A stretch of 64,000 nt of DNA from assembly GCA_018895235.1 (NCBI GenBank), contig JAHIOM010000010.1, forward strand, positions 2,406 to 66,405. The letters run 5' to 3'. The DNA is from Patescibacteria group bacterium. GTDB lineage: Bacteria > Patescibacteriota > Minisyncoccia > Minisyncoccales > Staskawiczbacteraceae. The notes beneath the pieces are model-generated. The model saw nothing but the letters and a program-made list of their open reading frames with translations, was not told the DNA's origin and did no database searches. Shown one piece after another: positions 6,230 to 56,501 of the stretch. A program made the position numbers and the translations under genes. Positions within the stretch are counted from its first letter, which is position 1. Each line of letters starts with the position of its first letter.

Positions 6230-8341
6230 TTATTTATTTTTATTTTCTGAATTTTGTTTGCCGGCTTCTAAAATCCTTTTGTCCAGTTTGTTTTGCAGGC
6301 CGTGGTTGAATTTATTGAACTCTTCTAAAGAGGGGAATGTTTTTCCGCCAAATTTTATTTTTGTCTTATTAAATAAAGAGGGCCTCATTTTCTTGATTTG
6401 AGACATTTTATATCCAGCATTAAATAGGGCAGCAATTTCTCCTTGGTCTAAATTAAAGTACTGGTTAAATAGTAATTCCCCTTTTTCAAATTTCTCCTTT
6501 TCTTTTTTAGAAAGACTAGTAGCAATAATCTTTTTGTATTCTTGCTCTTGAAGTTGTTTTAATTGCTCCCCATCGGTCTTTATCCCTTTTTGTTCGGTTG
6601 CTGACTCGCCAACTTTTGTTTCTTCTTTTTCTTCTGCCCCTTCGGGTTCTATTATTGTTTCTTTAATCCCAGCAACTCTTCTAATTGTTTCTCCCATTAT
6701 TCTATTTTTTCTCCTAACTAACCTATTTCTGCCTTCAATAAATCTACGGTCCATTTCATTTTTTGCTTCATCTTTAACAAAACTATCAAACCTATTTTGT
6801 ATCGTTTTCGTCCAAATTTTGAATTCGTATATTTTTGTCTTACTATAGGGAGGATATCCACCTGTTGGAAATATTATTTTTTTACCGGACCACCAACCCC
6901 CCTTAACCTCAATGTCTTGAGGTTTATAACCCGACCCCATAAGTTCATAATAAACATCTTTTGAAAGAGTTACGCCTTTTTCCTCTAATTGTTTTGTTAC
7001 ATTTTCTCTCTCCTTTTCTTTTTTTTCAAAAAGTTCTTCAATATTGTGCCCGTATTCTTCTCTGTCCATTACACTCATGCTTTCTCTAACACATGCCTCC
7101 CGTCTTTCTTTCTGCATTCTTTTTTCCATCTTATCTATGTTTCCTGGATTATAATATTCTTTTTTCGTAACAACCCTACCCCCTTCTCGCGCTATCTCGT
7201 TTTTGGCTTCATTTCTCACTTTTTCTCCTAAATCTTCACCTGTTAAAGATTTGGTTATTTCTTTGGCTTTTTCATATAATTCCTTGGCTATTTTTTCCTT
7301 TGTTTTTTTCTCTTCTCCTTCACCAGGCGCCTCTAAAATTCCTTCGATCTCATTGTGAACCCTTCCTAATTCTGTTTTTAAATTAGCGGTTCTTTCTTCT
7401 TCTCTATTCTCTATTTCTTTTTTCGCTTCTTTGTTAGCAACTCCTTTTTTAACTTCTTTTAATAGTTCTTGTCGCGCTTTATTATTACATTCAATATTAT
7501 CCACTTTTTTCCCTTTTTTTCTCGAACTTTCTGCTTTCTCGTAAGCCAGCCTATTCAGTTCCTCGTCTTGATTACCTTTTTTTTCGGAAGATAAAACATC
7601 TAATCTCTGCCATCTTTGATTGAGCATTTCTAATTTAGTTTTATTGAGAGATTTTGAATCATCTATTGCGGTAAAAAAATCGTTTTCTCGGGTACCTGCT
7701 TCTCCTTTTTCCATCCTTTCTTTTGAACGAAAATAAGCTTCTTTCTGTATCTGTTTATGAAGTGTCGTCCCCTCTTTTACACCCTCACTTAGTTGTTTAA
7801 GAGTGTCTTCTGCGTCTGTAATTTTGTCAGATAAAAATTTCCTTGCAGATTCTGCGGTTTTTGCCCAGGGATATTTTTTATTTTTTGCTTCTTCTAAACC
7901 AGGCAATTCAAACCTTTTGTCTGTTGATTCAATTTGAAAAAGTTGTTTTTTTTCTAATTTGTCACTTCCTTTTTCTTTTTTTTCTCTGCGACTTAAAGCA
8001 GCGCGAATATTGAGGTTTTCTTTATAAGCAGCAACTTTCTCCGGATATTCTTCAATAAATCTATCCCATTCTCGTTCCTCGATCTTTTTATGAACTTTTT
8101 GGCGTACTTCACCATATTCCTTTAATATTCCTTGCCGCGATTCATCATTTAATCCTTCTGTAAATTTATTTGTTATTTCTCTAACTTGCTCATCATTATC
8201 AGTTTGATTTTCAACTTGAGAAAGCGTTCGCTGAATAACAGGATCTAAAATATCATTCTCATAGGTTTTGGTTTTTTCTTCTGTTGTCTCTTCTGATTTT
8301 GGTTCTTCTGGTCTTAATGTTTCAGGATTTTGAGATGTCAT
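6230..8341 (-). CDS. large Glu/Lys-rich, probably coiled-coil protein, unknown function
   Basis: 703-aa uninterrupted ORF with a strongly charged low-complexity composition. No motif recognised. Confidence 0.5.
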   Translation of the reverse strand: MTSQNPETLRPEEPKSEETTEEKTKTYENDILDPVIQRTLSQVENQTDNDEQVREITNKFTEGLNDESRQGILKEYGEVRQKVHKKIEEREWDRFIEEYPEKVAAYKENLNIRAALSRREKKEKGSDKLEKKQLFQIESTDKRFELPGLEEAKNKKYPWAKTAESARKFLSDKITDAEDTLKQLSEGVKEGTTLHKQIQKEAYFRSKERMEKGEAGTRENDFFTAIDDSKSLNKTKLEMLNQRWQRLDVLSSEKKGNQDEELNRLAYEKAESSRKKGKKVDNIECNNKARQELLKEVKKGVANKEAKKEIENREEERTANLKTELGRVHNEIEGILEAPGEGEEKKTKEKIAKELYEKAKEITKSLTGEDLGEKVRNEAKNEIAREGGRVVTKKEYYNPGNIDKMEKRMQKERREACVRESMSVMDREEYGHNIEELFEKKEKERENVTKQLEEKGVTLSKDVYYELMGSGYKPQDIEVKGGWWSGKKIIFPTGGYPPYSKTKIYEFKIWTKTIQNRFDSFVKDEAKNEMDRRFIEGRNRLVRRKNRIMGETIRRVAGIKETIIEPEGAEEKEETKVGESATEQKGIKTDGEQLKQLQEQEYKKIIATSLSKKEKEKFEKGELLFNQYFNLDQGEIAALFNAGYKMSQIKKMRPSLFNKTKIKFGGKTFPSLEEFNKFNHGLQNKLDKRILEAGKQNSENKNK

Positions 8342-8477
8342 ATTTTTGAATTAATCATAATAATTAATAGTATTATTCTAATTTTACTTTAGCATTTTTT
8401 GTTTTCCAGCGCAATTAGGAAATAGGGGGCCTTGTTTTTTTGTCGCCTTTGTGATAAATAATATTTATACAAAAAAT

Positions 8478-8747
8478 ATGGCAATTACTAAATCGGCAAA
8501 AAAAGCCCTGCGCCAAAGCATTGGACGCAGAGCAAGAAATATTATTTATAAAGACAAAATAAAAAACCTCGTAAAAAAGGCGAGGATTTTAGTTTCTGAA
8601 AAGAAAATTGAAGAGGTAAAAAAGATTTTACCCGAGGTTTACCAAATTCTAGACAAAGCAGCGAAGGTTGGGTTGATTAAAAAAAACACAGCAGCAAGAA
8701 AAAAAAGCCGATTAACTAAATTGATCGATAGAAACACAACCGAGTAA
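8478..8747 (+). CDS. rpsT: 30S ribosomal protein S20
   Basis: MAITKSAKKALRQSIGRRARN is a typical S20 N-terminus. The start is moved to the in-frame ATG at 8478. Confidence 0.9.
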   Translation: MAITKSAKKALRQSIGRRARNIIYKDKIKNLVKKARILVSEKKIEEVKKILPEVYQILDKAAKVGLIKKNTAARKKSRLTKLIDRNTTE

Positions 8748-8748
8748 A

Positions 8749-9690
8749 CTACATCCCGGCGACCAACAGATCTAAAGCCATTTCTTGTTCTATTTTGCCG
8801 GTTTTTACATCGAAATCTACCTGAAATATCTTTTGGTAGATTTTTTTTAATTCCGAAAAAGTGAATTGCCCGGCTTGATAATAGCTTTTTTTAACCACAA
8901 AAGGATGAAGGCCGCTTTTTTGGATAATAAGACCATAGGGTTTATTTTTCTCCATTAACTCCTTAATTGTTAAAAGATTGCGGAATTGATAACCTATCAT
9001 TGATAGCAGATATAAAGGAGAATCGCCGTTTTCTAAGTGTTGATATAATAAATTAAGCGCTTGTTTTTTGTTCTTTTGGGCGATAGCATCAATGGTCTTA
9101 AAAATATCTGTTTCAATTTTGTTTTTTACAAGCAGTTTAATATCCGCAGCAGTAATTATTTTATTTCTTTTAAAATTAACCAGTTTTTGTATTTCATTTG
9201 CCATCCGCCATAAATCGTCACCGATATAATTAATAAGAAGACCTAAAGCATTTGGGTCAATTGCACCATTTTGTTTCTCAACTTCTTTTTTAACCCAATT
9301 CCTAAGATTTTGGCCTTCTAAAAGTTTAAACTCTTGCGATTTAGCGTTTTTATTTAAAACCTTGAGTAATTTATCCCCCTTTTTAATATTCTCTTTTTCG
9401 TAAATCACTATTATGTCTTCTGAATCTAAGAATGTTTTTATTTCTTTTTGAAACTCCTCTTTAAGGCTGGCCTTTGTAAAAAGATTGGCGATTATTGTTA
9501 ATTTTTTTTCTTTAAATATTGAAGTTTGTTGGATTTTATCTTTTAAATCGTTAATAACAACATTTTTCTCTTCACAATCAAAAAACCTTAAATTCAACCC
9601 ACTTTTATGGGTTTTATTATAATGAGCCAGCACTTCTTCTAATTTTTGACGCGACCTGTAGGAATCCGGGCCGTAAAGAAAAATAATCAT
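8749..9690 (-). CDS. holA: DNA polymerase III delta subunit
   Basis: N-terminal MIIFLYGPDSYRSRQKLEEV, plus size and helical C-terminal half typical of HolA. Confidence 0.65.
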   Translation of the reverse strand: MIIFLYGPDSYRSRQKLEEVLAHYNKTHKSGLNLRFFDCEEKNVVINDLKDKIQQTSIFKEKKLTIIANLFTKASLKEEFQKEIKTFLDSEDIIVIYEKENIKKGDKLLKVLNKNAKSQEFKLLEGQNLRNWVKKEVEKQNGAIDPNALGLLINYIGDDLWRMANEIQKLVNFKRNKIITAADIKLLVKNKIETDIFKTIDAIAQKNKKQALNLLYQHLENGDSPLYLLSMIGYQFRNLLTIKELMEKNKPYGLIIQKSGLHPFVVKKSYYQAGQFTFSELKKIYQKIFQVDFDVKTGKIEQEMALDLLVAGM

Positions 9691-9751: not shown

Positions 9752-10630
9752 TTATCGAATGGGTTGACAACTTGAACAATAATGGGCACTTCTTCCGCCT
9801 ATTTTTAATCTTTTTATAATACCGCCGCAGTGGCTGCATTTTTCGCCTTCTCGCTGATAAACCTTTCTTTCAATATCAAAGCTGCCCTTTTTACCCTGCA
9901 AATCTCTAAAATCTGATATACTTTCGCCTCTTAATTTAATACCTTTTTTCAGTACTATTTTTATTGATTTATAAAGTTTTTTTAACTCCTGATTATTTAA
10001 TTGAGACGCGGTTTTTAAAGGGTGAATTTTCGCCCGCCACAATGCTTCGTCAGAATAAATATTGCCAATACCCGCGATAACTTTCTGATCCATTAAAACC
10101 TGTTTTATTTTACCTTTTTTGTTTTTTATTATTTTCTTGAATTTTCTAAGGTTGAAAGAAAAATTCAAGGGCTCTGGCCCAAGCTCTTTAAACCCTTTGG
10201 AATTTTTTAACTCTGATGTATCCCACAGCTCTACTTTAGCAAATTTTCGCAAATCAGAAAGGGCAAGCATTAAATCGCCGGTCAGCCAAAACATAAGATG
10301 AATATAAAGATTGACTCTTTCTTCCAAGGGACCTATTTGAAGCGGCTGCCATTTTTGCATTAATAATTCCCAATTTCCCGCTAGAAGATGACCAGTTAGT
10401 TTTTGATGGATCAAAAGCGAATAACCATCTGATAATTCTAAAATAATATTTTTGGCACGGCGCCAAACTTTTTTGATTTTTTTACCCTTTAATTTTCTTT
10501 GGAAATCTTCAAAACTCCCGGGTTTTTTTATTATCTTGGGAGTATCAGTCCAAACATCAATAAAGGTCCTGTTGAGGACCTTTATTCGTAAATCTCTAAC
10601 AATTGTTTCTACTTCTGGCAATTCAGGCAT
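9752..10630 (-). CDS. mutM: formamidopyrimidine-DNA glycosylase
   Basis: MPELPEVETI N-terminus (start moved to the 4th codon of the track ORF). C-terminal zinc finger CSHCGG...HYCSSCQ. Confidence 0.9.
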   Translation of the reverse strand: MPELPEVETIVRDLRIKVLNRTFIDVWTDTPKIIKKPGSFEDFQRKLKGKKIKKVWRRAKNIILELSDGYSLLIHQKLTGHLLAGNWELLMQKWQPLQIGPLEERVNLYIHLMFWLTGDLMLALSDLRKFAKVELWDTSELKNSKGFKELGPEPLNFSFNLRKFKKIIKNKKGKIKQVLMDQKVIAGIGNIYSDEALWRAKIHPLKTASQLNNQELKKLYKSIKIVLKKGIKLRGESISDFRDLQGKKGSFDIERKVYQREGEKCSHCGGIIKRLKIGGRSAHYCSSCQPIR

Positions 10631-10647
10631 CTTACACAACCTTATTT

Positions 10648-11232
10648 TTATATGGAGGATTTTTTACCGGTGTTTTTTCTATTTTGTTTTCCTGCCAGGT
10701 CTTTTATTTCTTTTTTGAGTTTTATTATTTCTACTTCGCGGTTCTTCACTAGTTCTTGCAGTTGTTCTGATTCTTCAATTATTTTTTGCAGCTCTAGGGC
10801 TCTGCCCTTAACCTTTTGCTCCAAATTATTGATTTCTTCCTCCAATTCTTGAGTCCTTGCTCTTACCCTTACGTCAGCCACATCCTCGGCTTTTTCAGCT
10901 GTTTGGTGGCTTTGTTCTAATTCTCCCGCTATTTTATTAAAAGCCTTGGCTAATTCCCCAAATTCATCTTTGGTTCCTAAATAAATTCTGGAGTTTAATT
11001 CCCCGCGGCTTAACTTCTCGGCCTTATCTAATAACTGCCTTACGGGAGAGCTGAATTTTTGTCCTATGGAAAAACCAAAAAGAAAAACGAAAACAGCAAT
11101 CAAGGCGAAAATTGCATAAACCTCAATGTTTAAATTCTCATAATTCAAAGCAGTAAAAACAACCATAACAAAAATACCGATGATTATTATCGGGAAAGAG
11201 ACCTTGAACAGAATTTTTTTCGATGTTTTCAT
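10648..11232 (-). CDS. membrane protein with HAMP domain and coiled-coil tail
   Basis: Two N-terminal TM segments, then SSPVRQLLDKAEKLSRGELNSRI...DEFGELAKAFNKIAGEL, a HAMP-type motif. Confidence 0.6.
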   Translation of the reverse strand: MKTSKKILFKVSFPIIIIGIFVMVVFTALNYENLNIEVYAIFALIAVFVFLFGFSIGQKFSSPVRQLLDKAEKLSRGELNSRIYLGTKDEFGELAKAFNKIAGELEQSHQTAEKAEDVADVRVRARTQELEEEINNLEQKVKGRALELQKIIEESEQLQELVKNREVEIIKLKKEIKDLAGKQNRKNTGKKSSI

Positions 11233-11273
11233 TTTTTTGGTTGTAGTTGCAAAATTAATTATTTTTGTGGTTT

Positions 11274-29314: not shown

Positions 29315-30622
29315 CTATTTTAAAGCCGTAATCCATATTTTACTTAATTTTCTGTTCTGTTCAGGGTTTAAAACCCAGGAAATACTAAGGTTAGGTACAT
29401 CTTGGAAAAAAGTCTCACAGGAACCGTCATCAGTATACAAAACTACCAGATATTTTCCCTTTATTCTGATGGAATAGGGACAATCAAAAAATGTTTTACA
29501 CAATGCTTTTTCTTCAGCCGGCAAACTAATGTCTTCGTAAGAAAAAACTAATTTTTTAGGGTCGAATTCATTCATGGTTAGTATATCTGTTGGTTTGATA
29601 TTTTTATAACCAGCTTTTTTACCGACCTGCCAGCCAAAAGGTTGGCTATAAAACGTTACTCCGTCGCCAGAAGTTTCCCAGACAAAATTTAAAATAAAAA
29701 CAGTGATAGAAGAAACATCCTTAATATCTATTCGGTGGCAGATTTCTTGTTGTTTTATTTCCTTGCTAAGAGGGGAGCATTTTCCTCGGAAGTCCATATC
29801 GGAATGGAAAATAGCACTATAGGAGGTCTTATCGTCCCCCACTAATCCTCGAACAGGGATAAATTTGAACGCCTTGGCTTTTTTAATATAAGCTTCATCA
29901 ATTTGTTTCTGGCTTAATGTAATTGGCAAAGAAGGCATTTTATTGCAACCGGTATCAGTATAGAGAAAAGTTCCGGATTCCTCAAAATTAACTATAAAAG
30001 AAGCGGCATCTCTGAATTCTTTTCTGTCGTTGCACCCCAATACTTCGAAAGTGCCGTCTATCCAGTTGCCGAAATTTTTTTCGTTAAACTTTCTCACCCA
30101 CAAGGGCCTCCATGTGCCCCCCCCTATGGGTGTCTCGGGGTCCACTTCGCATTTATAAAATATTTCATTAAATTCTTCGGAAATATCCGCAGTGTCATTG
30201 ACTTGAACGGGGCAACTTGTCAATATTTCTTTACCTTCACTCTGGCCGGCAAGAAATACACCTTGTCCTTTTAAATCTGTTATTGTTACTGATATCAGGC
30301 GAGGATTTATTGTTTGAATTATCACCCAAGAAGATAACAAAAGCACTAAACCAAAAATGGAACCGAAAATTCTGCTTTTGGCGTCTCCCATTGCCTCAGG
30401 ATTACCAGCAGAAGTCAAGTACCGGATAGCGCCTATAATTAAAGATAAAACAGCAAGGGCACCGCCAAGACCTATTAAAAAGCCGAATAAATAATTTCTA
30501 TAATCAGTAAGACTTGGCTTACCTGGCAAGCCGGGTAGGGATACTTCTAAAGCCAAGCACTGGTTGGCATTTAAAATAAACCAAAGAAAGACAATTAAAA
30601 AATATGGATATTTTTTTTGCAT
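29315..30622 (-). CDS. VirB2/TrbC-like pilin module fused to a ~300-aa ectodomain (paralog 2)
   Basis: Start set at Met40 of the track ORF (MQKKYPYFLIVFLWFILNANQCLA signal). LEVSLPGLPGKPSL, TM, IRYLTSAGNPEAMGDAKSRIFGSIFGLVLLLSSWVIIQTINPRL. Confidence 0.75.
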   Translation of the reverse strand: MQKKYPYFLIVFLWFILNANQCLALEVSLPGLPGKPSLTDYRNYLFGFLIGLGGALAVLSLIIGAIRYLTSAGNPEAMGDAKSRIFGSIFGLVLLLSSWVIIQTINPRLISVTITDLKGQGVFLAGQSEGKEILTSCPVQVNDTADISEEFNEIFYKCEVDPETPIGGGTWRPLWVRKFNEKNFGNWIDGTFEVLGCNDRKEFRDAASFIVNFEESGTFLYTDTGCNKMPSLPITLSQKQIDEAYIKKAKAFKFIPVRGLVGDDKTSYSAIFHSDMDFRGKCSPLSKEIKQQEICHRIDIKDVSSITVFILNFVWETSGDGVTFYSQPFGWQVGKKAGYKNIKPTDILTMNEFDPKKLVFSYEDISLPAEEKALCKTFFDCPYSIRIKGKYLVVLYTDDGSCETFFQDVPNLSISWVLNPEQNRKLSKIWITALK

Positions 30623-30708
30623 GTTTCTATAATTAAAAACGAAAGAAAAAGAAAAGTTTATTTTTATTTTCTGTCTAAATACTGCAATTATCCAGACAGT
30701 CAGTATTG

Positions 30709-33516
30709 TTATTTTATCCTTTTTTCGCAGCATTGCCAATTATCCATCAGTTCTGTCCCAAGAATTTTCCCTACTAAGTTTCCATAACAGTAAGATTTGA
30801 ATACTTTTCCCGCCAATATGGTTTCCCAAGTTGATATCGGGTCTATATTATAATCTTTCATCATAGTACAACTAATTAACATTGTTTCTTTTTGGAAAAC
30901 AGTTGATATAGTACTGCATTCGTTCGCTTTTTTTCTGGAATAGATTAATCGTTTTAAAATTTCTGGCCTGTTTTGCTCCAGAGATTTTTTTAATTTTTCA
31001 AGCGCTTTTTGGATTTCTTCATAATACCATTTAACACCCTTATATTCCGTTCCTTCCGGGCATTTTTCATCTGCTTTTTTTCCGCGCAACAAATTAATCA
31101 TTTTTAAACAAGGATTGCCGCTACAGGGCTGCGGATTACAGCCGCAAACCAACTTTGTTCCAGTTTGATTGCCATCTTCATCATACACTGGGACTTCCTC
31201 TTGCCAAAAAATACAATCTCCATCACAGGGGTTTTCAGAGTCGCTGCATTTGCTATCACATTTGCAATAATTTTTTTCTTCGCCAATCCCTTTAATATAT
31301 TGTATTATATTCTCTGTTTTTTCAGTAAAATCTTTGATGTTTTTCATTAATTCTTCAGCCCACGCTTCTGCTTCGTCAACGGTCTGGCCGACAGGAATCT
31401 CTCTTTCTTTCGGGCAAACTTTGGTTTCTGCTAAAATTGTAGTTTTTATTTCTTTTTCTTGTAATAAAATTTCTTCCAGTTTGCGTCCGTAAGCCTCTTC
31501 CCACCAATCGGTCGAACAGTAAAAAGTTAATGGATCATCGTTATAAGAAAAATCCATACACTCTGCACCGCAAAAAAGACATTTTTCTTCAAGTTTTGTG
31601 CATTCAGCGTTTTTACAAGGACACTGAGGGCACTTTGAGAAGAAAGGACATTTTGCGCTTTCGGGATATAAAGGAGGTAGTATGTCTTTTTTAAATATAG
31701 TGGCGAAAAAAGCGCTTAGATAATCTTTATGACGAGTTGGGTTTTGGTATAGGTATAAAGAAGAATACGGTTCTGATTTTTGTACAGGTTTTTTTAAACA
31801 ATCAGGGTAGCCGGCATATTGGTCTGTGCAATAAATGCACATAGAAGATTCCACGCATCTTTTAAAATCTTCAAAAACACTATAGGTTTTTGCACAACTT
31901 CCAAGAACCTGAAAATTGACATAACAACTTTCCTGTTCAAAAAGGAATTTAGAGTCCTCAAGACAAAGATTTTCGCATTCTTCAAGAAAATCTGGACAGT
32001 TTTGATATTTTTTTTGGCACAACTCCTTACATTGATTGCCCAATGTTATTAAACAATCTTGGAAGGATTTAAATCCAAAATCATTATTTCCACATTTATA
32101 ATAATTAGTTTTGATGCAATCAATATTGTCGCCGCAACCCTTTAATCCTTGGAAAGACGTTAGGTTTATACCGGGTGAACATATTTTTTGGCAGGTGTTA
32201 AAACGAGATGTGTCGCTCCAACCAAATCCTTTACAGTATTCAGAAATATCAACACTTTTTTCCGTGGAGGGGTCTTTGAAGGGTTTTTGTATCTCTATTT
32301 TTATATTGTTTTTATCTGATTTCTCCTTTATTTTAAGGAAATCGAAATAAGACTTTGATAAGTAGCATTTTGTCAATTTAGTTTCAGCGTTTTTTAAATT
32401 ATTTAAATCAAGCTTAAATTCTTCTTTCAATTTAGACAATTTTTCTTTCAAATACATTAATTGCTCGATAAGTTTTGCTTTTTCCCATTCCTCTTTTTTT
32501 ATAACCTTTACTTTTTTGTCGTTAAGGTCGATTTCCTCCTCCATGGTGGGTAAAATTGTCGTCTTATCGGTCCTATATTCATCCAGCCCCTTATAATTCT
32601 TGCCCGGACCGTCTTCGCAATCTTTTATAGGTATGGGACCATGTTCTATTTTTTCTTTCACCTCGGGCAGACAGCATTCTTTTTCTCCTTTGCAAGAAGC
32701 CCTTACACAATCACCCTTACAAGGGATATTTGTTCCTATTAAGCCATTTAGGTTTGGACCGCAAGATTGTTTGGCTTGGCAAGTAGAACAATTTAAATCG
32801 CAATTTTCTATATTTCGGCAACTGCAATTCTCCATCAATTTTGCTATTTCTTCTGACAAATCGCTGAATATTTTTGATTTTTTTTCAAAGGCTTCAGATA
32901 ATTTTAAAATGCAATCCACCCTATCATGGCCCATTAAAGTTGGCTCCCAACCTGCTGTTGTTGCGTTACCATCAATAGGATCCCCCCTAAAATCAAAGTC
33001 ATAACAATCCATAGTTCTTGTTAAAAGGGTTTCAGTTAAGGTGCCGATTGGAATTTCATAATAAACTGCAATTGGTACTATTTTCTCCGGAGTTACTGTA
33101 GGGATGTTAATTGTCGGGATGGGGAAACCCAAAGGAGTCATTTTTAATTTGATCAAATCAGGATTGATAGTATACATTATCAACCAAGAAGACAATAAAA
33201 TAAGCAGGCCCAAAATTCCTGCCTTTATCCATTCTTTTCCTTCGCTGGTTATTTTCCCCATCCCAAAAGAAACCAGATAATGGATACCCCCGAACATTAT
33301 CACCATAACTGCCAAAGTGCCGGCCATTTGCATTACAAAATTGAAAATATAACTTACATATTGGGGCAGAGATGGATTTTGTCCCAATCCAGGGAGCTCA
33401 ACCTCAATGGCTAAAACTAAATTAGGCCCCAGTATTATGTTTAGTAGAAAGGATAAAAACAAAACAATAAGGAGCGAGAAAACAAAAAACAAATAATTCT
33501 TTTTATTGCTTTGCAT
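30709..33516 (-). CDS. VirB2/TrbC-like pilin module fused to an ~800-aa extremely Cys-rich ectodomain (paralog 3)
   Basis: Signal peptide, IEVELPGLGQNPSL, TM, IHYLVSFGMGKITSEGKEWIKAGILGLLILLSSWLIMYTINPDL. Then dense Cys clusters such as CSCRNIENCDLNCSTCQAKQSC, CPQCPCKNAEC and CKCDSKCSDSENPCDGDC. Confidence 0.75.
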   Translation of the reverse strand: MQSNKKNYLFFVFSLLIVLFLSFLLNIILGPNLVLAIEVELPGLGQNPSLPQYVSYIFNFVMQMAGTLAVMVIMFGGIHYLVSFGMGKITSEGKEWIKAGILGLLILLSSWLIMYTINPDLIKLKMTPLGFPIPTINIPTVTPEKIVPIAVYYEIPIGTLTETLLTRTMDCYDFDFRGDPIDGNATTAGWEPTLMGHDRVDCILKLSEAFEKKSKIFSDLSEEIAKLMENCSCRNIENCDLNCSTCQAKQSCGPNLNGLIGTNIPCKGDCVRASCKGEKECCLPEVKEKIEHGPIPIKDCEDGPGKNYKGLDEYRTDKTTILPTMEEEIDLNDKKVKVIKKEEWEKAKLIEQLMYLKEKLSKLKEEFKLDLNNLKNAETKLTKCYLSKSYFDFLKIKEKSDKNNIKIEIQKPFKDPSTEKSVDISEYCKGFGWSDTSRFNTCQKICSPGINLTSFQGLKGCGDNIDCIKTNYYKCGNNDFGFKSFQDCLITLGNQCKELCQKKYQNCPDFLEECENLCLEDSKFLFEQESCYVNFQVLGSCAKTYSVFEDFKRCVESSMCIYCTDQYAGYPDCLKKPVQKSEPYSSLYLYQNPTRHKDYLSAFFATIFKKDILPPLYPESAKCPFFSKCPQCPCKNAECTKLEEKCLFCGAECMDFSYNDDPLTFYCSTDWWEEAYGRKLEEILLQEKEIKTTILAETKVCPKEREIPVGQTVDEAEAWAEELMKNIKDFTEKTENIIQYIKGIGEEKNYCKCDSKCSDSENPCDGDCIFWQEEVPVYDEDGNQTGTKLVCGCNPQPCSGNPCLKMINLLRGKKADEKCPEGTEYKGVKWYYEEIQKALEKLKKSLEQNRPEILKRLIYSRKKANECSTISTVFQKETMLISCTMMKDYNIDPISTWETILAGKVFKSYCYGNLVGKILGTELMDNWQCCEKRIK

Positions 33517-33935: not shown

Positions 33936-36900
33936 TTATTGTCCTTCCATTCTCTTTTTCGCCGCCCTAATATTTAAAATTTCTTCTGGCGCGGTGGTGA
34001 TTATCCGATCTTCTGTAGAACTGGCGACAATTTGTATTGCCACGTGTTTTCTACCGGCAAAGAAAATTCCTTCACCGACCGCCGCTTCCAACAATATATA
34101 TTTCTCTTGTTCAGTAATATTAAAAACTTTTTGGACAACATCAATAGTGGCTGGCGATTGTTTAAGCAATAATGTCATTGAAGAATTGGTAATAATTGGC
34201 TGACCATAATCAGATTTCATAAAATCAGCCACATCTTGAGTAATAGTGGTTACCCCTAGCCAGTACTTGCGGGCGCGTTTAGCTAAGCCGAATAAGAATG
34301 AGGCTCCTTCTGTAGTTTGCATCAGCCACCAGGCCTCATCCACAACCAAAATTCTCTTCTTTAATTTTGACCTGACCACATTCCAGATATATCGCATAAC
34401 TATATAAAGGGCCATTGGCCTTAAACTTTCTTCCATATCTCTTATTCCAAATACAATCATGTTTTTATCCATTGTTATATTAGAACGTTGATTGAAAAAA
34501 TCAGCATAAGTGCCTTTAGTGAACTTTTTAATCCTTCTTACTAAAGATTCTGCTCCGGACATGCTTTCTAAAACTTCTTCAAAATCAGACATTAAAGGAA
34601 TGTTTTCCTGCCAGGTTTCAGGCTCTGACTCCGGAGTAATATCGCGGATAGCATAAGTTTCAGTTAAGGCCTGATCTATAATACTATCTTCTTCCGGGCT
34701 TAAACCGCCCAGCATAATTCTTAATAATCCGACTAAATTAATAATATTAGACCTTAAGACGTCTTCCTTGTTCTCGCCTTCAGCCGGAACCGGAAGGTCA
34801 AATGGGTTAAGTTGATGAGGGGAAGTCAGAGAAATTTTAAAGAATGATCCTCCTACTGCGTCAGCTAAAGCCTCATACTCATTTTCAGGATCAATTACGA
34901 TTACGTCTATCCCCTGCATTAAATAGCGTAAAATTTCCAGTTTAATGGCATAGGAATTATGAACAAACATTCCTGCTTGGCCAGCGAGAAAAACCTCATT
35001 GTCCACAGTAAGGTCATAAACATATTTTTCCTTTTTATTTTCAATTTTTTTAATTTCTGTAATTGGATCCCAAAATAGTTCAGAATTAGCTAAAATTTTC
35101 AACTGCTTTAATTTTTCTTCAACCTTCGGGATGTTATTTGTTAAAATACTTTGATAATTTTCCCAAATAAACTGAGCTGATTTTTGAATCATTCCATAAC
35201 AAGTATTGCTTGCAGGCCTCTCAATCAAAGCAGTTTGTAAAGAACAATTATAGTATTTTATCGGAAGTTCCATTTCTCGGAACCCTAAATGGATCGCCGA
35301 TTTTATATTTTCTAAATAAAAAGAATTTCCATTAATAACCTCAATTGCTTTTAGAACATTGTTTGATCTGGGTTCTACTTCTTGATTTTTCATTATCCGC
35401 CAACTTTGGCCTAATGTTTGCCAAAGAGCCCGATTCAATTCTTTATTATTTTTTCCCAGAGAAATTACCGTACTTAAATTTGGAAGTTCTTCCAAGGTTT
35501 TAAAGGTTGAATGTGAATTTTTGAAATGTTGAATTTTTTCTTCAATTTTAGTTATTATTTTTTGGAGATTTTGGGGAGAGGGATGACGGACTTCTCTTTT
35601 CCATTCGGAGATTTCAGGGATTCCGTGTAACTGAAATCCAAATAGCCGATATATTTCTTGAAAGATTAATTCTAACCCAGGGATAAGATCAACATTAGTA
35701 TTTCCTTCTTTTTGAATAATTTCTGAAAGTTGCTTTCTTTTTCTCTCCGAAATAAAATTGATATTTTCGGCAAATTTTCTTAAATTGTCTTGGCCGGAAA
35801 TCGAAATTTTCCAATAAATTCTTTTACGTTTCCAATTAGAATTAGTAGTTTTCTTTTTTGTTTTTGATATTCTTCCTATAACTCCAAAGTAAAATAAAAG
35901 ATAAGCAATTTCTGAAATTAGTTTTTTAGATTTAGATACAGCGCAAATTCCTCCTTTTTCAACTCCTCCGTCACCCTCAAAATAGCCTGAAATATAACTG
36001 GCGATTTTTTCTTTTTCTAAATTAAAAATAAACGGCAAAACTTTTTTTTGGCCCGACTTGTTTTTTCCGCCTAGTGCTTTTATAATTTCTATAAATATCC
36101 TTGAACTAATAATTATTCCCTTGTTTCCGTAAAAAAACGGAACCTCGCATTTTTTAAGAGAAGCATCAAGAGCCCCTAAAACTTCCATGTCTATATTGGT
36201 TATTATCACAGCCCTTTCTGTTATTGTTCCTTCAGCGCATATTAACCCCAATAGTTTCAAAAAATCAGTTGTTACTGGGAAATCAACGGGATAAGTGCAT
36301 CTTTTTTCTCCGGTTTTCGAAACAATTTTAATATCTTTTAGAATTAGGCACGTGGCTTCGATTTTTAAAAAGTCTAAAATTTTCCAGAAATAATCTATTG
36401 GAATTACCCGGTTTTCTTTATACTTATAAAGATACTTGTCTAGTTTTTTATTTAAAATAGATTTTTTTAAAATTTGATAATTCTCTTTAATCAAATTTTC
36501 TCCGCCCGTAACATAAACATTTTTTGACTTCTTAAGAATTTCTAAAAGATTAAGGAATTTTATAGGAGAACCGCTTGCAGAAACATTTCGCGGTAGGGGA
36601 ACGTATTCACCTTTTATTACTTCAGAGCTTTTTGAAACAGTTATCGTCCCATTTTTAAGAATTAGCATATTGTGGTCTCCTGTTGTTGTGATTTCTCTAC
36701 CGCTTCTTGTTTTAAATTTGTAAAAAACATCCGTTGCTTTTTTTCTAGCGGCAACGCTCACTTTTGACCACTCTCCTTTTAGCTCTTTATTAAAGGCGTA
36801 AACTTCAATATCAGGATTAATTACTCCCTCTAATTCTTCGTCGATTTTAGTTAATCCTTGTTTTTTGATTAGTTTTTCTATAACAGGGCCGATTTTTAAT

Positions 36901-37733
36901 AATTGAATTTTACCTTTATTTTTGATTAAAACTGGTTCAGAACCTAAAATGCTTTTTCCACTACCCGCCTTGGCGAAAACGACTGAATTCGCATTCTCTA
37001 AACTGAATCTATCAAACAAAATAAGAGAATTATTGTGACGATTAACTCCGTAAAGAATCCCTTCATTAGAACTTAAATCAAAAGAAATAAAAGGAAAAGC
37101 AGTTGAGAGGGGCGCTGTATCCATTGGCACGTGAATATCAATAAGGTCTAAACCGTAAGGGTTGCAAGAAATAAATCCCTCCCTTTGTTTATAAAGGGCA
37201 GGTTTAATATAAATTAAACGAGATTCAAAAATAGACCTTAAAGTAAGTTCGGTATCTTTTAAGGTTTTTTCTGTGTTTTCATAGATGGTAATATACAGGC
37301 CGAAACGGAACATTCTTTCTTGGGCTGTTTGCAAAGAATCTCGCAGCGCTTCAATATTTTGGTAAGCCATTTGCAGAGCTGGATCGCGGATTAGTCCTTT
37401 TTCTTCTCTTTCCATAATTTCAGAAGAAACCTCAGTAACCTTTTTCCTTAACTTTTTTAAAATCAATTCAGTGCTAATGGGGTGGATATGAAAAGAAATA
37501 TCCATCGGCGTGTTTAAATTAATAACCGGGGATAGCCAGCCGGTATTTAGATATCTTGGGTAAGAAAATATAAAAAAAGACCGAGATAATCGTTCCCCCA
37601 GCTTTAGATGGTTCTGTTCAACCCCCACATAAGGAGGGGCAATTATATCTCTCACATCAAAAGCTTCCTCTTCAAAGATTTTCTCTATGCTTTCTTCCTC
37701 TTTCTTTTTTAAAAAAGGTAACTCAAATTTCAT
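33936..37733 (-). CDS. virB4: VirB4/TraC-type T4SS ATPase interrupted by an intein (260-aa N-extein + 666-aa intein + 339-aa C-extein)
   Basis: N-extein ends FAKAGSGK and the C-extein starts SYAIKLEILRY, so splicing restores Walker A GSGKS. Walker B RILVVDEAWW. N-terminal ...FIFSYPRYLNTGWLSPV... is typical of VirB4. Confidence 0.85.
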   Translation of the reverse strand: MKFELPFLKKKEEESIEKIFEEEAFDVRDIIAPPYVGVEQNHLKLGERLSRSFFIFSYPRYLNTGWLSPVINLNTPMDISFHIHPISTELILKKLRKKVTEVSSEIMEREEKGLIRDPALQMAYQNIEALRDSLQTAQERMFRFGLYITIYENTEKTLKDTELTLRSIFESRLIYIKPALYKQREGFISCNPYGLDLIDIHVPMDTAPLSTAFPFISFDLSSNEGILYGVNRHNNSLILFDRFSLENANSVVFAKAGSGKSILGSEPVLIKNKGKIQLLKIGPVIEKLIKKQGLTKIDEELEGVINPDIEVYAFNKELKGEWSKVSVAARKKATDVFYKFKTRSGREITTTGDHNMLILKNGTITVSKSSEVIKGEYVPLPRNVSASGSPIKFLNLLEILKKSKNVYVTGGENLIKENYQILKKSILNKKLDKYLYKYKENRVIPIDYFWKILDFLKIEATCLILKDIKIVSKTGEKRCTYPVDFPVTTDFLKLLGLICAEGTITERAVIITNIDMEVLGALDASLKKCEVPFFYGNKGIIISSRIFIEIIKALGGKNKSGQKKVLPFIFNLEKEKIASYISGYFEGDGGVEKGGICAVSKSKKLISEIAYLLFYFGVIGRISKTKKKTTNSNWKRKRIYWKISISGQDNLRKFAENINFISERKRKQLSEIIQKEGNTNVDLIPGLELIFQEIYRLFGFQLHGIPEISEWKREVRHPSPQNLQKIITKIEEKIQHFKNSHSTFKTLEELPNLSTVISLGKNNKELNRALWQTLGQSWRIMKNQEVEPRSNNVLKAIEVINGNSFYLENIKSAIHLGFREMELPIKYYNCSLQTALIERPASNTCYGMIQKSAQFIWENYQSILTNNIPKVEEKLKQLKILANSELFWDPITEIKKIENKKEKYVYDLTVDNEVFLAGQAGMFVHNSYAIKLEILRYLMQGIDVIVIDPENEYEALADAVGGSFFKISLTSPHQLNPFDLPVPAEGENKEDVLRSNIINLVGLLRIMLGGLSPEEDSIIDQALTETYAIRDITPESEPETWQENIPLMSDFEEVLESMSGAESLVRRIKKFTKGTYADFFNQRSNITMDKNMIVFGIRDMEESLRPMALYIVMRYIWNVVRSKLKKRILVVDEAWWLMQTTEGASFLFGLAKRARKYWLGVTTITQDVADFMKSDYGQPIITNSSMTLLLKQSPATIDVVQKVFNITEQEKYILLEAAVGEGIFFAGRKHVAIQIVASSTEDRIITTAPEEILNIRAAKKRMEGQ
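34956..36953 (-). mobile_element. intein with LAGLIDADG homing-endonuclease domain, inserted in the VirB4 P-loop
   Basis: Starts SILGSEPVLI (Ser1). Block B is ITTTGDHNML. LAGLIDADG motifs LLGLICAEGT and ISGYFEGDGG. Ends VYDLTVDNEVFLAGQAGMFVHN followed by +1 Ser. Confidence 0.85.
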
Positions 37734-54901: not shown

Positions 54902-55267
54902 CTAAACCCTGGGAGTGGTGGCGCCAAGAGTGTCAAGAATAAAGTTAATAATTGCCCTAGCCCCTAGTGATAATACCAATCCGATAATAGCAGCAATCAA
55001 AATTTTCTTCCCCGTGTTTTTAAGTTCAGGATTGCCGGCAGAGACCAACAATATTATTCCGCCAAGCGTTATAAAAAGCATAGCCAAAATTGCAACAATT
55101 GTTAACAACCAATCTATTATTACTCCAGGCAGGCCAATTAAATCATTTAAAGTGCACATCGATTGACCCTCACCACCGCACTTAACAATTCCTTCTCCCT
55201 GTGCTGTTATACTAAGGGGGATTAACAAAAAAAACAACAAGATGAATATAATAAATGTTTTTTTCAT
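54902..55267 (-). CDS. stand-alone VirB2/TrbC-like T4SS pilin
   Basis: Signal peptide, then TM1, ILLVSAGNPELKNTGKKILIAAIIGLVLSLG and TM2. Same core as the pilin modules at 28-33.5 kb. Confidence 0.65.
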   Translation of the reverse strand: MKKTFIIFILLFFLLIPLSITAQGEGIVKCGGEGQSMCTLNDLIGLPGVIIDWLLTIVAILAMLFITLGGIILLVSAGNPELKNTGKKILIAAIIGLVLSLGARAIINFILDTLGATTPRV

Positions 55268-55358: not shown

Positions 55359-56501
55359 CTAACGCAAAATAGCCCTTAAATCTTGCGTTGTTTTTTTGCG
55401 GATTTGATCTTGAATTTTATTTATCTCTTCGTTCTTCAGCGTTCTTTCCGGCGAACGGTAAACTATGCGGAACGTATAACTCTTTTTGTCTTTCCCAAAT
55501 TTTGCATCGTTTTTGTAGCTGTCTAAAAGTTTTACTTCTTCTATTAAATTTTCTGCAAAGTCTCTTATAATTTCGTAATAATTATTTAAATTTATATTCT
55601 TGTCAATTATAAAAGAAATATCTCTTGAAATTGGCGGATATTTGCTGACTTCTTTAAATTTACTGTTTATGTCTTTAAACTGGCTGGTAATACGCGGATC
55701 TTCCGACCACAAAATTCTTATGTCAGGAATCCCCATTTTTATCATTGCCAATCTGTCTCCGAACCCAAAAGCCCAGCCATTGTAAACTTTAGGATCCAAC
55801 CCAAAATTTTTCAAAACTTGCGGGTGCACCAACCCAGCTCCATTCACTTCCATCCATTCTCCGTTAAATTTAATGTCCATTTCAAGACTTTCCACAGTAT
55901 AAGGGAACGAGTCGGGAATAAATTTCCACTCGACGCGTGAACCAAAAATACCCTTTGCCAAATCAACTTGGACATCTTTTAAATCTTCTTGAGTAATAAC
56001 TTTCTGGGATTTTTCACAAATATATAGGCCGTCAATTTGGTGAAAGGCAGGATAATGATTTCTGTCAATTTCGTCTTTGCGGAAAACAATTCCAACACAC
56101 AGTGCCTCAATATGGCCATCTTTTTTCAGTTTTTCTAAAACCTCTTGATCTTTTAAATAAAATGACCAAAAAGCTGTTGTGTGAGTACGCAAAATATGGA
56201 TGTTGTCTAGATAATAAGTGTCTGTTTCCTTTCTGCTTGGATGAGTTTGGGGCATATTTAAAAGGTCAAAACATTGTTCAACGGTTACAATTCGCGGAAA
56301 ATCAACCAAATCAAAATTCTTAAATCTTGGTAGTTTAATTATTTGGTCGAATAAAATTTTTACAGGAGAATTTTTCTTTTTTGTTAAATCGAACAGCTTT
56401 AACAATCTTTTGACTCTTTCTGCCTTAATATCGGTTCTTTTCTCTAATCCTTTGATTAAACCATTCTCCTTTTTATCTTTTATAACAATGTTTTTCCGCA
56501 T
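55359..56501 (-). CDS. pheS: single-chain phenylalanyl-tRNA synthetase of the mitochondrial (FARS2-like) type: catalytic alpha-like core + C-terminal FDX-ACB domain
   Basis: THPSRKETDTYYL..ILRTHTT, FRKDEIDRNHYPAFHQ, GWAFGFGDRLAMIKMGIPDIRILW. Then KYPPISRDISFIID....SYTFRIVYRSPERTLKNEEINKI, an FDX-ACB-type anticodon-binding domain. Confidence 0.8.
   Translation of the reverse strand: MRKNIVIKDKKENGLIKGLEKRTDIKAERVKRLLKLFDLTKKKNSPVKILFDQIIKLPRFKNFDLVDFPRIVTVEQCFDLLNMPQTHPSRKETDTYYLDNIHILRTHTTAFWSFYLKDQEVLEKLKKDGHIEALCVGIVFRKDEIDRNHYPAFHQIDGLYICEKSQKVITQEDLKDVQVDLAKGIFGSRVEWKFIPDSFPYTVESLEMDIKFNGEWMEVNGAGLVHPQVLKNFGLDPKVYNGWAFGFGDRLAMIKMGIPDIRILWSEDPRITSQFKDINSKFKEVSKYPPISRDISFIIDKNINLNNYYEIIRDFAENLIEEVKLLDSYKNDAKFGKDKKSYTFRIVYRSPERTLKNEEINKIQDQIRKKTTQDLRAILR

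What the first reader, a model, noticed from the sequence alone, without database searches (positions are those of the whole stretch)
55359..56501. Mitochondrial-type single-chain PheRS instead of the bacterial alpha2-beta2 enzyme
The 380-aa protein carries the class II catalytic core of PheRS-alpha: HPSRKETDTYYL..LRTHTT; FRKDEIDRNHYPAFHQ; GWAFGFGDRLAMIKMGIPDIRILW. This is directly followed by KYPPISRDISFIID...SYTFRIVYRSPERTLKNEEINKI, the ferredoxin-fold anticodon-binding (FDX-ACB) domain. In bacteria that domain normally sits at the end of the beta subunit. From memory, the domain order and several motif strings parallel the monomeric mitochondrial enzyme (FARS2/MSF1), but this needs an alignment. 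No pheT is adjacent. If no beta subunit exists in the genome, the organism uses a minimal monomeric PheRS without the editing domain. That would be relevant both to genome reduction and to the evolutionary origin of the mitochondrial enzyme.
Basis: partly seen in the sequence, partly recalled or inferred. Interest (0 to 1): 0.6.

Follow-up and report, generated by a model that had tools for sequence, protein, structure and literature searches.

The report
Single-chain PheRS replacing bacterial pheS–pheT
This ultra-small (Patescibacteria) bacterium encodes a one-piece phenylalanyl-tRNA synthetase built like the mitochondrial enzyme, and in its relatives this gene sits exactly where the usual two-subunit pheS–pheT genes sit, so it has most likely replaced them.

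Summary
ORF 55359..56501 (-) encodes 380 aa with a class II PheRS core (PF01409, E 6e-55) fused to an FDX-ACB anticodon-binding domain (PF03147, E 3e-26).

- **Closest structures:** the only full-length matches, by sequence and by fold, are human mitochondrial PheRS.
- **Family:** more than 5,000 members, 65-85% identical, in Paceibacteria-type MAGs. NCBI mostly calls them "hypothetical protein".
- **Key result, a two-state locus:** in 85 canonical relatives the order is gatA-hyp171-tRNA(Met,Met,Asp)-pheS-pheT-gyrB-secE-nusG-rplK. In 41 of 65 informative fused-gene loci the fused gene lies directly upstream of gyrB instead. No pheT lies within ±10 kb of the fused gene, and no fused gene near pheT.
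- **Function:** active-site residues are PheRS-like.
- **Not SrmL:** NCBI's "mystery ligase" SrmL is a separate paralogue with altered pocket residues. It co-occurs with this gene on one contig.
- **Phylogeny:** domain trees put all fused forms (this family, SrmL, mitochondrial and huge-phage forms) in one clade apart from canonical PheS and PheT. This family is a sister lineage, not nested among eukaryotes.
- **Not shown:** genome-wide absence of pheT in this genome (the window is a rearranged case), monomeric state, and activity.
- **Literature:** I found no published description.

The parts
55359..56501 (-). Complete gene for the 380-aa single-chain PheRS (stop codon at 55359-55361)
   Evidence: ORF. 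The exact protein is found on 5 public contigs and is named 'hypothetical protein KKE19_00805 [Patescibacteria group bacterium]'.
56385..56501 (-). N-terminal extension, residues 1-39. It is conserved within the family and predicted helical. It lacks the Phe_tRNA-synt_N coiled coil of canonical PheS.
   Evidence: No PF02912 hit, whereas canonical Parcubacteria PheS have it. Invariant positions in A1. Helices 12-21 and 25-34 in the AF2 model.
55677..56384 (-). Class II PheRS catalytic core, residues 40-275: HPSR, LRTHTT, motif 2 VFRKDEIDRNHYPAFHQ, FPYT pocket, EVNGAG, motif 3 GWAFGFGDR
   Evidence: PF01409 E 6.2e-55. Active-site alignment. Core superposes on bacterial PheS alpha at about 4 A over about 233 columns.
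55647..55676 (-). Fusion junction and hinge, residues 276-285 (KDINSKFKEV). It lies between the exact PheS C-terminus equivalent (…DIRILWSEDPRITSQF) and the start of the PheT-type FDX-ACB domain (SKYPPISRDISF…).
   Evidence: Comparison with C-termini of 6 canonical PheS and FDX-ACB starts of 6 PheT. pLDDT below 50 for residues 270-286.
55362..55646 (-). FDX-ACB (B8-like) anticodon-binding domain, residues 286-380
   Evidence: PF03147 E 3e-26, profile positions 1-94 of 94. Matches the C-terminus of TIGR00472 pheT_bact at positions 692-798 and residues 592-679 of Parcubacteria PheT.

Best explanation
The gene encodes the housekeeping phenylalanyl-tRNA synthetase of this Paceibacteria-type Patescibacterium. 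It is a single polypeptide that joins the catalytic module of PheS to the C-terminal anticodon-binding (FDX-ACB/B8) domain of PheT, the same chimera as mitochondrial PheRS.

Proposed mechanism:
- The class II core activates Phe with ATP and transfers it to tRNAPhe.
- The FDX-ACB domain reads the GAA anticodon.
- A flexible roughly 15-residue hinge lets the two modules re-orient on tRNA binding, as in human mtPheRS.
- There is no B3/B4 editing domain, so Tyr and m-Tyr discrimination rests on the synthetic site alone.

In this lineage the gene has replaced the pheS-pheT operon.

Shown: architecture, junction, intact active-site residues, fold match, the alternative-state locus, and the distinction from SrmL.

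Inferred: Phe specificity, monomeric state, hinge motion, lack of editing in trans, and genome-wide absence of pheS and pheT in this genome.

Origin: both domain trees favour one ancient fusion shared with mitochondrial, phage and SrmL forms. It is unresolved whether that fusion happened in situ in a Paceibacteria ancestor or whether an already fused gene displaced pheST.
For: - Architecture and scores.
- Junction: the fused protein equals the PheS C-terminus, about 10 aa, then the PheT FDX-ACB start.
- Active site: PheRS residues are conserved, including the pocket alanine (GWAFG) and the FP[YF]T aromatic pair, while SrmL has changed them.
- Structure: AF2 model pLDDT 76.9 with a low-confidence hinge. 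The top 7 Foldseek PDB hits are full-length human mtPheRS, including the tRNA-bound 3TUP.
- Conservation: more than 5,000 homologues at E<=1e-10, the best 120 at 78-100% identity. 76 loci in GTDB species representatives at 55-83% identity. Mean column identity is 83% in A1.
- Locus replacement: the complete chromosome CP179891.1 and 84 further canonical loci read ...mreB-gatC-gatA-hyp171-pheS-pheT-gyrB-secE-nusG-rplK. pheT lies directly upstream of gyrB in 60 of 61 loci, with a median gap of 62 bp.
- In fused-gene genomes the same neighbourhood holds the fused gene in that slot (for example L014, L071, L007, L043, L010, L055). It lies directly upstream of gyrB in 41 of 65 loci.
- The tRNA-Met/Met/Asp trio is conserved in both states.
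- There is no PheT-specific match in about 1.1 Mb around fused genes. There is no fused gene in 0.98 Mb around pheST.
- The states are phylogenetically clustered on a gyrB tree: about 5 changes, against about 33 when labels are shuffled.
- The closest relatives of the window protein (L005-L007, 80-82% identical) still have the fused-gyrB arrangement.
Against: - No complete genome carrying the fused gene could be scanned, so a pheS-pheT pair elsewhere is not formally excluded.
- The window itself lacks gyrB and gatA. It belongs to the 24 of 65 loci where the fused gene has moved away from gyrB, so for this genome the slot argument is indirect.
- Canonical PheT is also abundant in close relatives: more than 120 hits at >=61% identity to the CP179891.1 PheT.
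- The protein misses all three curated NCBIfam cutoffs.
- The crown clade has a one-residue deletion in the motif 3 loop (GFG-DRL), with unknown effect.
- No biochemical data exist.
- The trees are NJ only, with few non-Parcubacteria canonical sequences.
Confidence: 0.8

Rival explanations
1. The gene is an accessory paralogue. The genome still has a canonical pheS-pheT pair elsewhere, and this protein does something additional, such as stress-specific charging or a non-translational ligation.
For: - Canonical pheST is common in closely related Paceibacteria.
- A group-C relative in an Oligoflexia MAG sits in a non-translational context and is probably an extra copy there.
- Fused-type paralogues do exist in these genomes, for example SrmL in L019.
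- The whole genome could not be inspected.
Against: - The fused gene sits in the pheST slot and the two states never co-occur across about 160 loci and about 2 Mb of flanks.
- All PheT genes recovered from these close relatives are gyrB-adjacent (60 of 61). A second pheST in fused-gene genomes would therefore have to sit in an otherwise unseen location.
- The very high conservation and intact PheRS residues fit an essential enzyme.
Confidence: 0.1
2. It is a member of the SrmL 'PheS-related mystery ligase' family, with a substrate other than Phe-tRNAPhe.
For: NF051887 SrmL is the top NCBIfam hit by E-value (8.8e-77, 258.5 bits), with the same two-domain architecture.
Against: - The score is below the curated cutoff of 300, while true SrmL proteins score 359-442 bits.
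- SrmL forms its own clade with 100% bootstrap.
- SrmL has HPYT, A[ML]G and ECG substitutions in the pocket, whereas this family keeps the PheRS residues.
- A true SrmL and an orthologue of this gene lie 7 kb apart on one contig, L019, so they are distinct paralogues.
Confidence: 0.03
3. Alternative origin: the gene is a recent horizontal acquisition of a eukaryotic mitochondrial (FARS2-type) or phage gene. It is not an old bacterial lineage.
For: - The core scores higher against mito-type and phage-type proteins (105-170 bits) than against Parcubacteria's own PheS (86-109 bits).
- There is 0% bootstrap support for grouping with Parcubacteria PheS or PheT.
- Compact forms that pass the mitochondrial cutoff occur on huge-phage-like contigs, which are plausible vectors.
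Against: - The family plus group C forms its own clade (89%) outside the mito-type clade (92%), not nested within it.
- It lacks the eukaryotic core insertion.
- It is deeply diversified (55-85% identity) across many Paceibacteria lineages.
- It occupies the ancestral pheST position.
Confidence: 0.07

Closest known systems
Mitochondrial monomeric PheRS (human FARS2, yeast MSF1; TIGR00469; 'PheRS-M' of AARS Online; PDB 3CMQ, 3TUP)
   Same: - Same chimera of the PheS catalytic module and the PheT B8/FDX-ACB domain in one chain, with no beta-subunit or editing domains (PMC3275996).
- Same junction pattern (…RFLKQF-linker-SKYP…).
- Best PDB match by sequence (E 8e-57) and the only full-length fold match (31-32% identity).
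- Both belong to one clade of fused proteins (100% and 92.5% NJ bootstrap).
   Different: - Bacterial and cytoplasmic, with no targeting peptide.
- Misses the TIGR00469 cutoff (243 vs 258.35).
- A separate sister clade.
- Lacks the 20-45 residue eukaryotic insertion in the core.
- Has a roughly 10-residue insertion after LRTHTT, which it shares with the group-C relatives (P0121, P0122). Its crown clade also has a one-residue deletion in motif 3.
- Sits in a bacterial operon context.
Canonical bacterial (alpha-beta)2 PheRS, PheS + PheT (TIGR00468/TIGR00472), including the reduced roughly 650-700 aa PheT of Parcubacteria
   Same: Homologous catalytic core (E ~1e-38 to PDB PheS chains) and homologous FDX-ACB domain. 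Same genomic slot upstream of gyrB in related genomes.
   Different: - One gene instead of two.
- No Phe_tRNA-synt_N coiled coil, and no B1, B3/B4 (editing), B5 or B6/B7 domains.
- Below the TIGR00468 cutoff (182 vs 237).
- Separated from all sampled canonical PheS with 100% bootstrap.
SrmL, 'PheS-related mystery ligase' (NCBIfam NF051887)
   Same: Same two-domain architecture. Member of the same fused superclade. Found in the same kind of genomes (L019).
   Different: - Score 258.5, below the cutoff of 300.
- Distinct long-branch clade.
- SrmL has altered amino-acid pocket residues.
- SrmL co-occurs with this gene as a separate paralogue next to a LysRS-like paralogue.

Membership tests
Single-chain (mitochondrial-type) PheRS architecture | Class II PheRS catalytic module (tRNA-synt_2d) | tested here: met
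   PF01409 E 6.2e-55, residues 40-275
Single-chain (mitochondrial-type) PheRS architecture | FDX-ACB/B8 anticodon-binding domain fused C-terminally in the same chain, directly after the PheS C-terminus | tested here: met
   PF03147 E 3e-26, residues 286-380; junction alignment
Single-chain (mitochondrial-type) PheRS architecture | Absence of beta-subunit domains (B1-B7, including B3/B4 editing) and of the alpha N-terminal coiled coil | tested here: met
   No PF03483, PF03484, PF17759 or PF02912 hit above threshold in the 380-aa protein
Single-chain (mitochondrial-type) PheRS architecture | Full-length structural correspondence to solved mtPheRS | tested here: met
   Foldseek top 7 hits are human mtPheRS, 389-406 aligned columns, E ~1e-27. 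TM is only about 0.5 because of domain orientation, and the model pLDDT is 76.9.
Single-chain (mitochondrial-type) PheRS architecture | Monomeric, active in Phe-tRNAPhe synthesis | not testable with these tools
   Needs biochemistry. Only active-site conservation is shown.
TIGR00469 pheS_mito equivalog (orthologues of MSF1/FARS2) | Score at or above the curated cutoff of 258.35 bits | tested here: not met
   243 bits
TIGR00469 pheS_mito equivalog (orthologues of MSF1/FARS2) | Placement inside the mitochondrial clade | tested here: not met
   Sister clade: Paceibacteria + group C 89%, mito-type 92% NJ bootstrap
SrmL (NF051887) | Score at or above the curated cutoff of 300 bits | tested here: not met
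   258.5 bits; true members score 359-442 bits
SrmL (NF051887) | SrmL-type pocket residues and clade membership | tested here: not met
   Keeps FP[YF]T, AFG and GAG, where SrmL has HPYT, A[ML]G and ECG. The SrmL clade has 100% support and excludes this protein. Both occur on contig L019.
Canonical bacterial PheS (TIGR00468) | Score at or above the cutoff of 237.45, N-terminal coiled coil, partner pheT adjacent | tested here: not met
   182.4 bits; no PF02912; no pheT in the window or in 76 related loci
Sole PheRS of the genome (replacement of pheST) | No pheS or pheT anywhere in the same genome | tested here: inconclusive
   Strong indirect support from the mutually exclusive two-state locus. 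No complete fused-gene genome could be scanned, and the window is a rearranged case.

The most novel reading that the evidence does not exclude
The single-chain PheRS is an old bacterial invention. It may have been made by a deletion inside a pheS-pheT operon of a Paceibacteria-like ancestor, which would explain why it still sits in that slot. On this reading the mitochondrial enzyme (FARS2/MSF1), the compact huge-phage versions and SrmL all descend from that bacterial lineage. The universal mitochondrial PheRS would then have been acquired ready-made from a CPR-like bacterium or a phage. It would be neither a eukaryotic invention nor an alphaproteobacterial inheritance.
Probability: 0.3. Interest if true: 0.85.

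Novelty: new variant of a known kind. Interest (0 to 1): 0.65.

Why it matters
[quoted passage not shown] This finding matters for four reasons.

1. **A bacterial exception.** A large bacterial lineage, with thousands of MAGs, appears to run translation on the minimal, editing-free form.
2. **A natural experiment.** Closely related genomes carry either pheS-pheT or the fused gene at the same locus. That allows direct comparison of proteome fidelity, tRNAPhe identity and the cost of losing editing.
3. **Origin of FARS2.** The family supplies bacterial outgroups that make the origin of the mitochondrial enzyme testable.
4. **Practical effects.** pheS and pheT (TIGR00468/TIGR00472) are, to my knowledge, used as single-copy markers for completeness estimates and phylogenomics of CPR genomes (not checked here). 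Their lineage-specific replacement would bias those estimates. PGAP currently leaves the real PheRS of these genomes annotated as "hypothetical protein".

Tried and rejected
1. **Literature.** Ten full-text searches (SrmL; Patescibacteria, Parcubacteria or CPR with PheRS or pheT; monomeric or mitochondrial-like PheRS in bacteria; giant virus or phage) found no description of a bacterial single-chain PheRS. Mukai 2017 notes only that many CPR PheT lack the B2 domain. The supplements of the closed Ca. Nealsonbacteria genome paper contain no PheRS entry.
2. **Abundance argument (failed).** I expected few close PheT orthologues if fused-gene genomes lack pheT. More than 120 PheT at >=61% identity to CP179891.1 exist, so both states are common and this argument was dropped.
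3. **Taxonomy by source names.** Most representatives are unnamed, and NCBI labels for near-identical proteins are inconsistent.
4. **Recent in-situ origin from the local Parcubacteria pheS-pheT.** Not supported by scores or trees, although the genomic position would fit it.
5. **SrmL membership.** Rejected.
6. **pheS/pheT remnants.** The gaps between hyp171 and the fused gene contain only unrelated ORFs (some resembling pyrimidine-biosynthesis and GIY-YIG genes by eye) and tRNAs.

Full report
**Observation.** The window has an ATG-initiated ORF at 55359..56501 on the minus strand. Pfam places a class II PheRS core (tRNA-synt_2d) at residues 40-275 (E 6.2e-55) and a complete FDX-ACB domain at residues 286-380 (E 3e-26). 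The window is AT-rich (GC 0.34-0.39). It also carries dnaA, a class A penicillin-binding protein, T4SS pilin genes and an intein-bearing TraG-like ATPase. The exact protein is known from a "Patescibacteria group bacterium" MAG (KKE19_00805). No other ORF of the window is a pheT or a second pheS.

**What the protein resembles.**
- Against NCBIfam it falls between families. It scores 258.5 bits for NF051887 "PheS-related mystery ligase SrmL" (cutoff 300), 243 for TIGR00469 mitochondrial PheRS (cutoff 258.35) and 182 for bacterial PheS (cutoff 237). Its last ~100 residues match the C-terminus of bacterial PheT.
- Against the PDB by sequence, the best matches are the six human mitochondrial PheRS entries (E ~1e-56, both domains). 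Bacterial alpha subunits follow at E ~1e-38, covering the core only, and beta subunits at ~1e-7, covering FDX-ACB only.
- An AlphaFold2 model (29-sequence alignment, pLDDT 76.9, hinge residues 270-286 below 50) finds human mtPheRS as its top seven Foldseek hits over the full length. These include the tRNA-bound open form 3TUP. Bacterial PheS chains match only the core, at about 4 A over about 233 columns.

**The junction.** The fused protein runs through the exact C-terminus of PheS (DIRILWSEDPRITSQF, compare DIRLLHSADLRFLKQF-stop in Niyogibacteria PheS). After about ten residues it continues with SKYPPISRDISF, the start of PheT's FDX-ACB domain (SKYPALYRDIAL). [quoted passage not shown]

**Distribution.**
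- More than 5,000 homologues reach E<=1e-10, and the best 120 are 78-100% identical. Most are unnamed, called "hypothetical protein" by NCBI, or called "PheRS alpha chain" by JGI.
- A scan of GTDB species representatives returned 76 loci with the fused gene at 55-83% identity. They come from MAGs labelled Nealson-, Staskawicz-, Taylor-, Moran- and Paceibacteria, plus several obviously mislabelled bins. They include an 876 kb chromosome and contigs of 702 and 549 kb.
- The same scan fortuitously returned a Niyogibacteria locus (L078) with a canonical pheS and a reduced 690-aa pheT. This supplied lineage-appropriate probes.

Canonical PheT is common in Parcubacteria and also in close relatives, so the lineage as a whole has not lost it. 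The decisive evidence is positional.
- The complete chromosome CP179891.1 reads holB-frr-M50-aaRS-mreB-gatC-gatA-hyp171-(LAGLIDADG)-pheS-pheT-gyrB-secE-nusG-rplK-.... Three further canonical loci read pheS-pheT-gyrB-..., and 80 metagenomic PheT loci show the same order.
- pheT is immediately upstream of gyrB in 60 of 61 loci with enough sequence, with a median gap of 62 bp.
- In genomes with the fused gene, the same neighbourhood carries the fused gene in that position. Examples are L014, L071, L007, L043, L010 and L055, where the neighbouring genes are 45-82% identical to those of CP179891.1. The fused gene lies directly upstream of gyrB in 41 of 65 loci.
- The tRNA-Met, tRNA-Met, tRNA-Asp trio between hyp171 and the slot is conserved in both states.
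- No PheT-specific similarity occurs in about 1.1 Mb around fused genes. No fused gene occurs in 0.98 Mb around pheST. The intervening gaps hold unrelated genes, not remnants.
- On a gyrB tree (104 genomes) the two states are strongly clustered: 5 inferred changes (3-9 across bootstraps), against about 33 with shuffled labels.

I conclude that pheS-pheT and the fused gene are alternative occupants of one locus, so the fused gene is the functional replacement. The few state changes among close relatives could reflect allelic exchange through the conserved flanks; that is an inference.

**Limits for this particular genome.** The window does not include gyrB or gatA. Here the gene lies between tRNA-Arg(TCG) and tRNA-Lys(CTT), next to a pilin gene, what I read by eye as rpsO and pnp, and cca. 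This is one of the 24 rearranged cases. Its closest relatives (L005-L007, 80-82% identity) and most members of its crown clade keep the fused-gyrB arrangement. pheST was therefore most likely already lost in their common ancestor. Genome-wide absence was not directly checked.

**Function.** Aligned with E. coli and Parcubacteria PheS, mito-type, phage-type and SrmL proteins, the window family keeps these elements:
- HPSR and LRTHTT;
- the motif 2 arginine (VFRKDE) and FHQ;
- the aromatic FP[YF]T pocket and EVNGAG;
- motif 3 GWAFGFG-DR, including the alanine equivalent to E. coli A294. From my own knowledge of the Ibba/Kast/Hennecke and Tirrell work, this residue sets pocket size; PMC3275996 discusses the pocket.

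True SrmL proteins replace several of these (HPYT, A[ML]G, ECG, and loss of the His of HPxR). The protein is therefore most likely Phe-specific. By analogy with mtPheRS, I infer that it acts as a monomer, that its FDX-ACB domain swings on a hinge to bind the anticodon, and that it lacks post-transfer editing (PMC3275996).

**Relation to SrmL.** Six representatives scoring 359-442 bits are true SrmL. They form a long-branch clade with 100% bootstrap. One Paceibacteria-type contig (L019) carries both an 82%-identical orthologue of the window gene and a true SrmL (400 bits) 7 kb away. That SrmL is convergent with a divergent LysRS-like paralogue. SrmL is thus a distinct paralogue, and the window protein is not SrmL.

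**Evolution.** In NJ trees with 200 bootstraps, all fused proteins form one clade. It is separate from canonical PheS (100%, 200 columns) and from PheT FDX-ACB domains (92.5%, 87 columns).
- Within the fused clade, the Paceibacteria family plus a few other bacterial forms ("group C", including an Oligoflexia MAG protein) has 89% support. The mito-type group has 92%. Mito-type plus SrmL has 64%.
- The family is not nested among eukaryotes. It also does not group with Parcubacteria's own PheS or PheT (0%).
- Its core scores higher against mito-type proteins (105-170 bits) and E. coli PheS (133) than against Parcubacteria PheS (86-109).
- A single ancient fusion is therefore favoured. Whether it happened in situ in a Paceibacteria ancestor, followed by fast divergence, or whether a ready-made fused gene displaced pheST in situ, remains open.
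- Caveats: distance method only, short FDX-ACB alignment, and E. coli as the only named non-Parcubacteria canonical sequence in either tree (four unnamed canonical PheS representatives were also included in the core tree).

**Side finding.** Compact 345-370 aa forms that pass the mitochondrial cutoff lie on huge-phage-like contigs of 160-494 kb. These carry terminase, T4 RNA ligase, PNKP, NUMOD nucleases, another aaRS and IF-1. The forms branch at the base of the eukaryotic sequences.

**Novelty.** No paper in the searchable library links PheRS with CPR or Patescibacteria or describes a bacterial single-chain PheRS. AARS Online lists PheRS-M only as the FARS2 form. The kind of enzyme is known. 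Its use as the housekeeping PheRS of a major bacterial lineage, replacing pheST at its own locus, appears undescribed.

Noticed in passing
L019:17916-19031 (-) and L019:16360-17808 (+): A true SrmL 'mystery ligase' (400 bits, cutoff 300) lies convergent with a divergent LysRS-like class IIb paralogue that is below all curated cutoffs. It is 7 kb from an orthologue of the window gene. The pairing hints that SrmL and the LysRS-like protein work together on an unknown substrate.
   Followed up: partly
L087 (JGI Ga0210003_1000004, 494 kb) 8001-9104; L088 (Logan SRR32456865_22369, 160 kb) 8001-9065: Compact single-chain PheRS genes that pass the curated mitochondrial PheRS cutoff sit on huge-phage-like contigs. 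Those contigs carry terminase, T4 RNA ligase 1, PNKP, NUMOD endonuclease, a GluRS/GlnRS-type synthetase and IF-1. In NJ trees these genes branch at the base of the eukaryotic mitochondrial sequences.
   Followed up: partly
window 33936-37733 (-): A 1265-aa TraG/VirD4-like P-loop ATPase is interrupted by an intein with a LAGLIDADG homing endonuclease. T4SS pilin-domain genes lie nearby (29315-30739) and right next to the PheRS gene (54902-55267).
   Followed up: no
L014:11208-15479; L083:14680-18060: The gyrB gene just downstream of the PheRS slot carries large inteins in some genomes (1423-aa and 1126-aa products). A free-standing LAGLIDADG ORF sits between the tRNA-Met pair and tRNA-Asp just upstream of pheS in CP179891.1; LAGLIDADG-like matches also occur in L100 and L149. 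Homing elements cluster around this locus.
   Followed up: no
window 55359-56501, residues 246-250; compare L070 and P0121: The crown clade of the family has a one-residue deletion in the motif 3 loop (GFG-DRL instead of GxGLERL). It is invariant in 29 sequences. Basal members (L070, P0121) lack it. The functional meaning is unknown.
   Followed up: no
L085 (Oligoflexia MAG JAIBBV010000034.1) 10001-11245; L089 8001-9371: Relatives of the family occur outside Paceibacteria (group C; 48-50% and 42% identical in the representative search). The Oligoflexia copy sits among unrelated metabolic genes, so there it is probably an extra, horizontally acquired copy. Another copy lies next to an ATP synthase operon.
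   Followed up: partly
loci L003-L006, L022, L025, L028, L029, L031 (record titles): Near-identical orthologues (76-82%) come from MAGs labelled Saccharibacteria, Nanoarchaeota, Gammaproteobacteria or Bdellovibrionales. These are taxonomic mislabels or mis-binned contigs in public records.
   Followed up: no
L078:10653-12725; L079:10001-12028; P0291-P0528: The canonical PheT of Parcubacteria is consistently reduced to about 650-700 aa, against 795 aa in E. coli. Pfam hits are only B3_4, B5, tRNA_synthFbeta and FDX-ACB. This agrees with the reported loss of the B2 domain in CPR (PMC5370408) and could be an intermediate degree of PheRS reduction.
   Followed up: no
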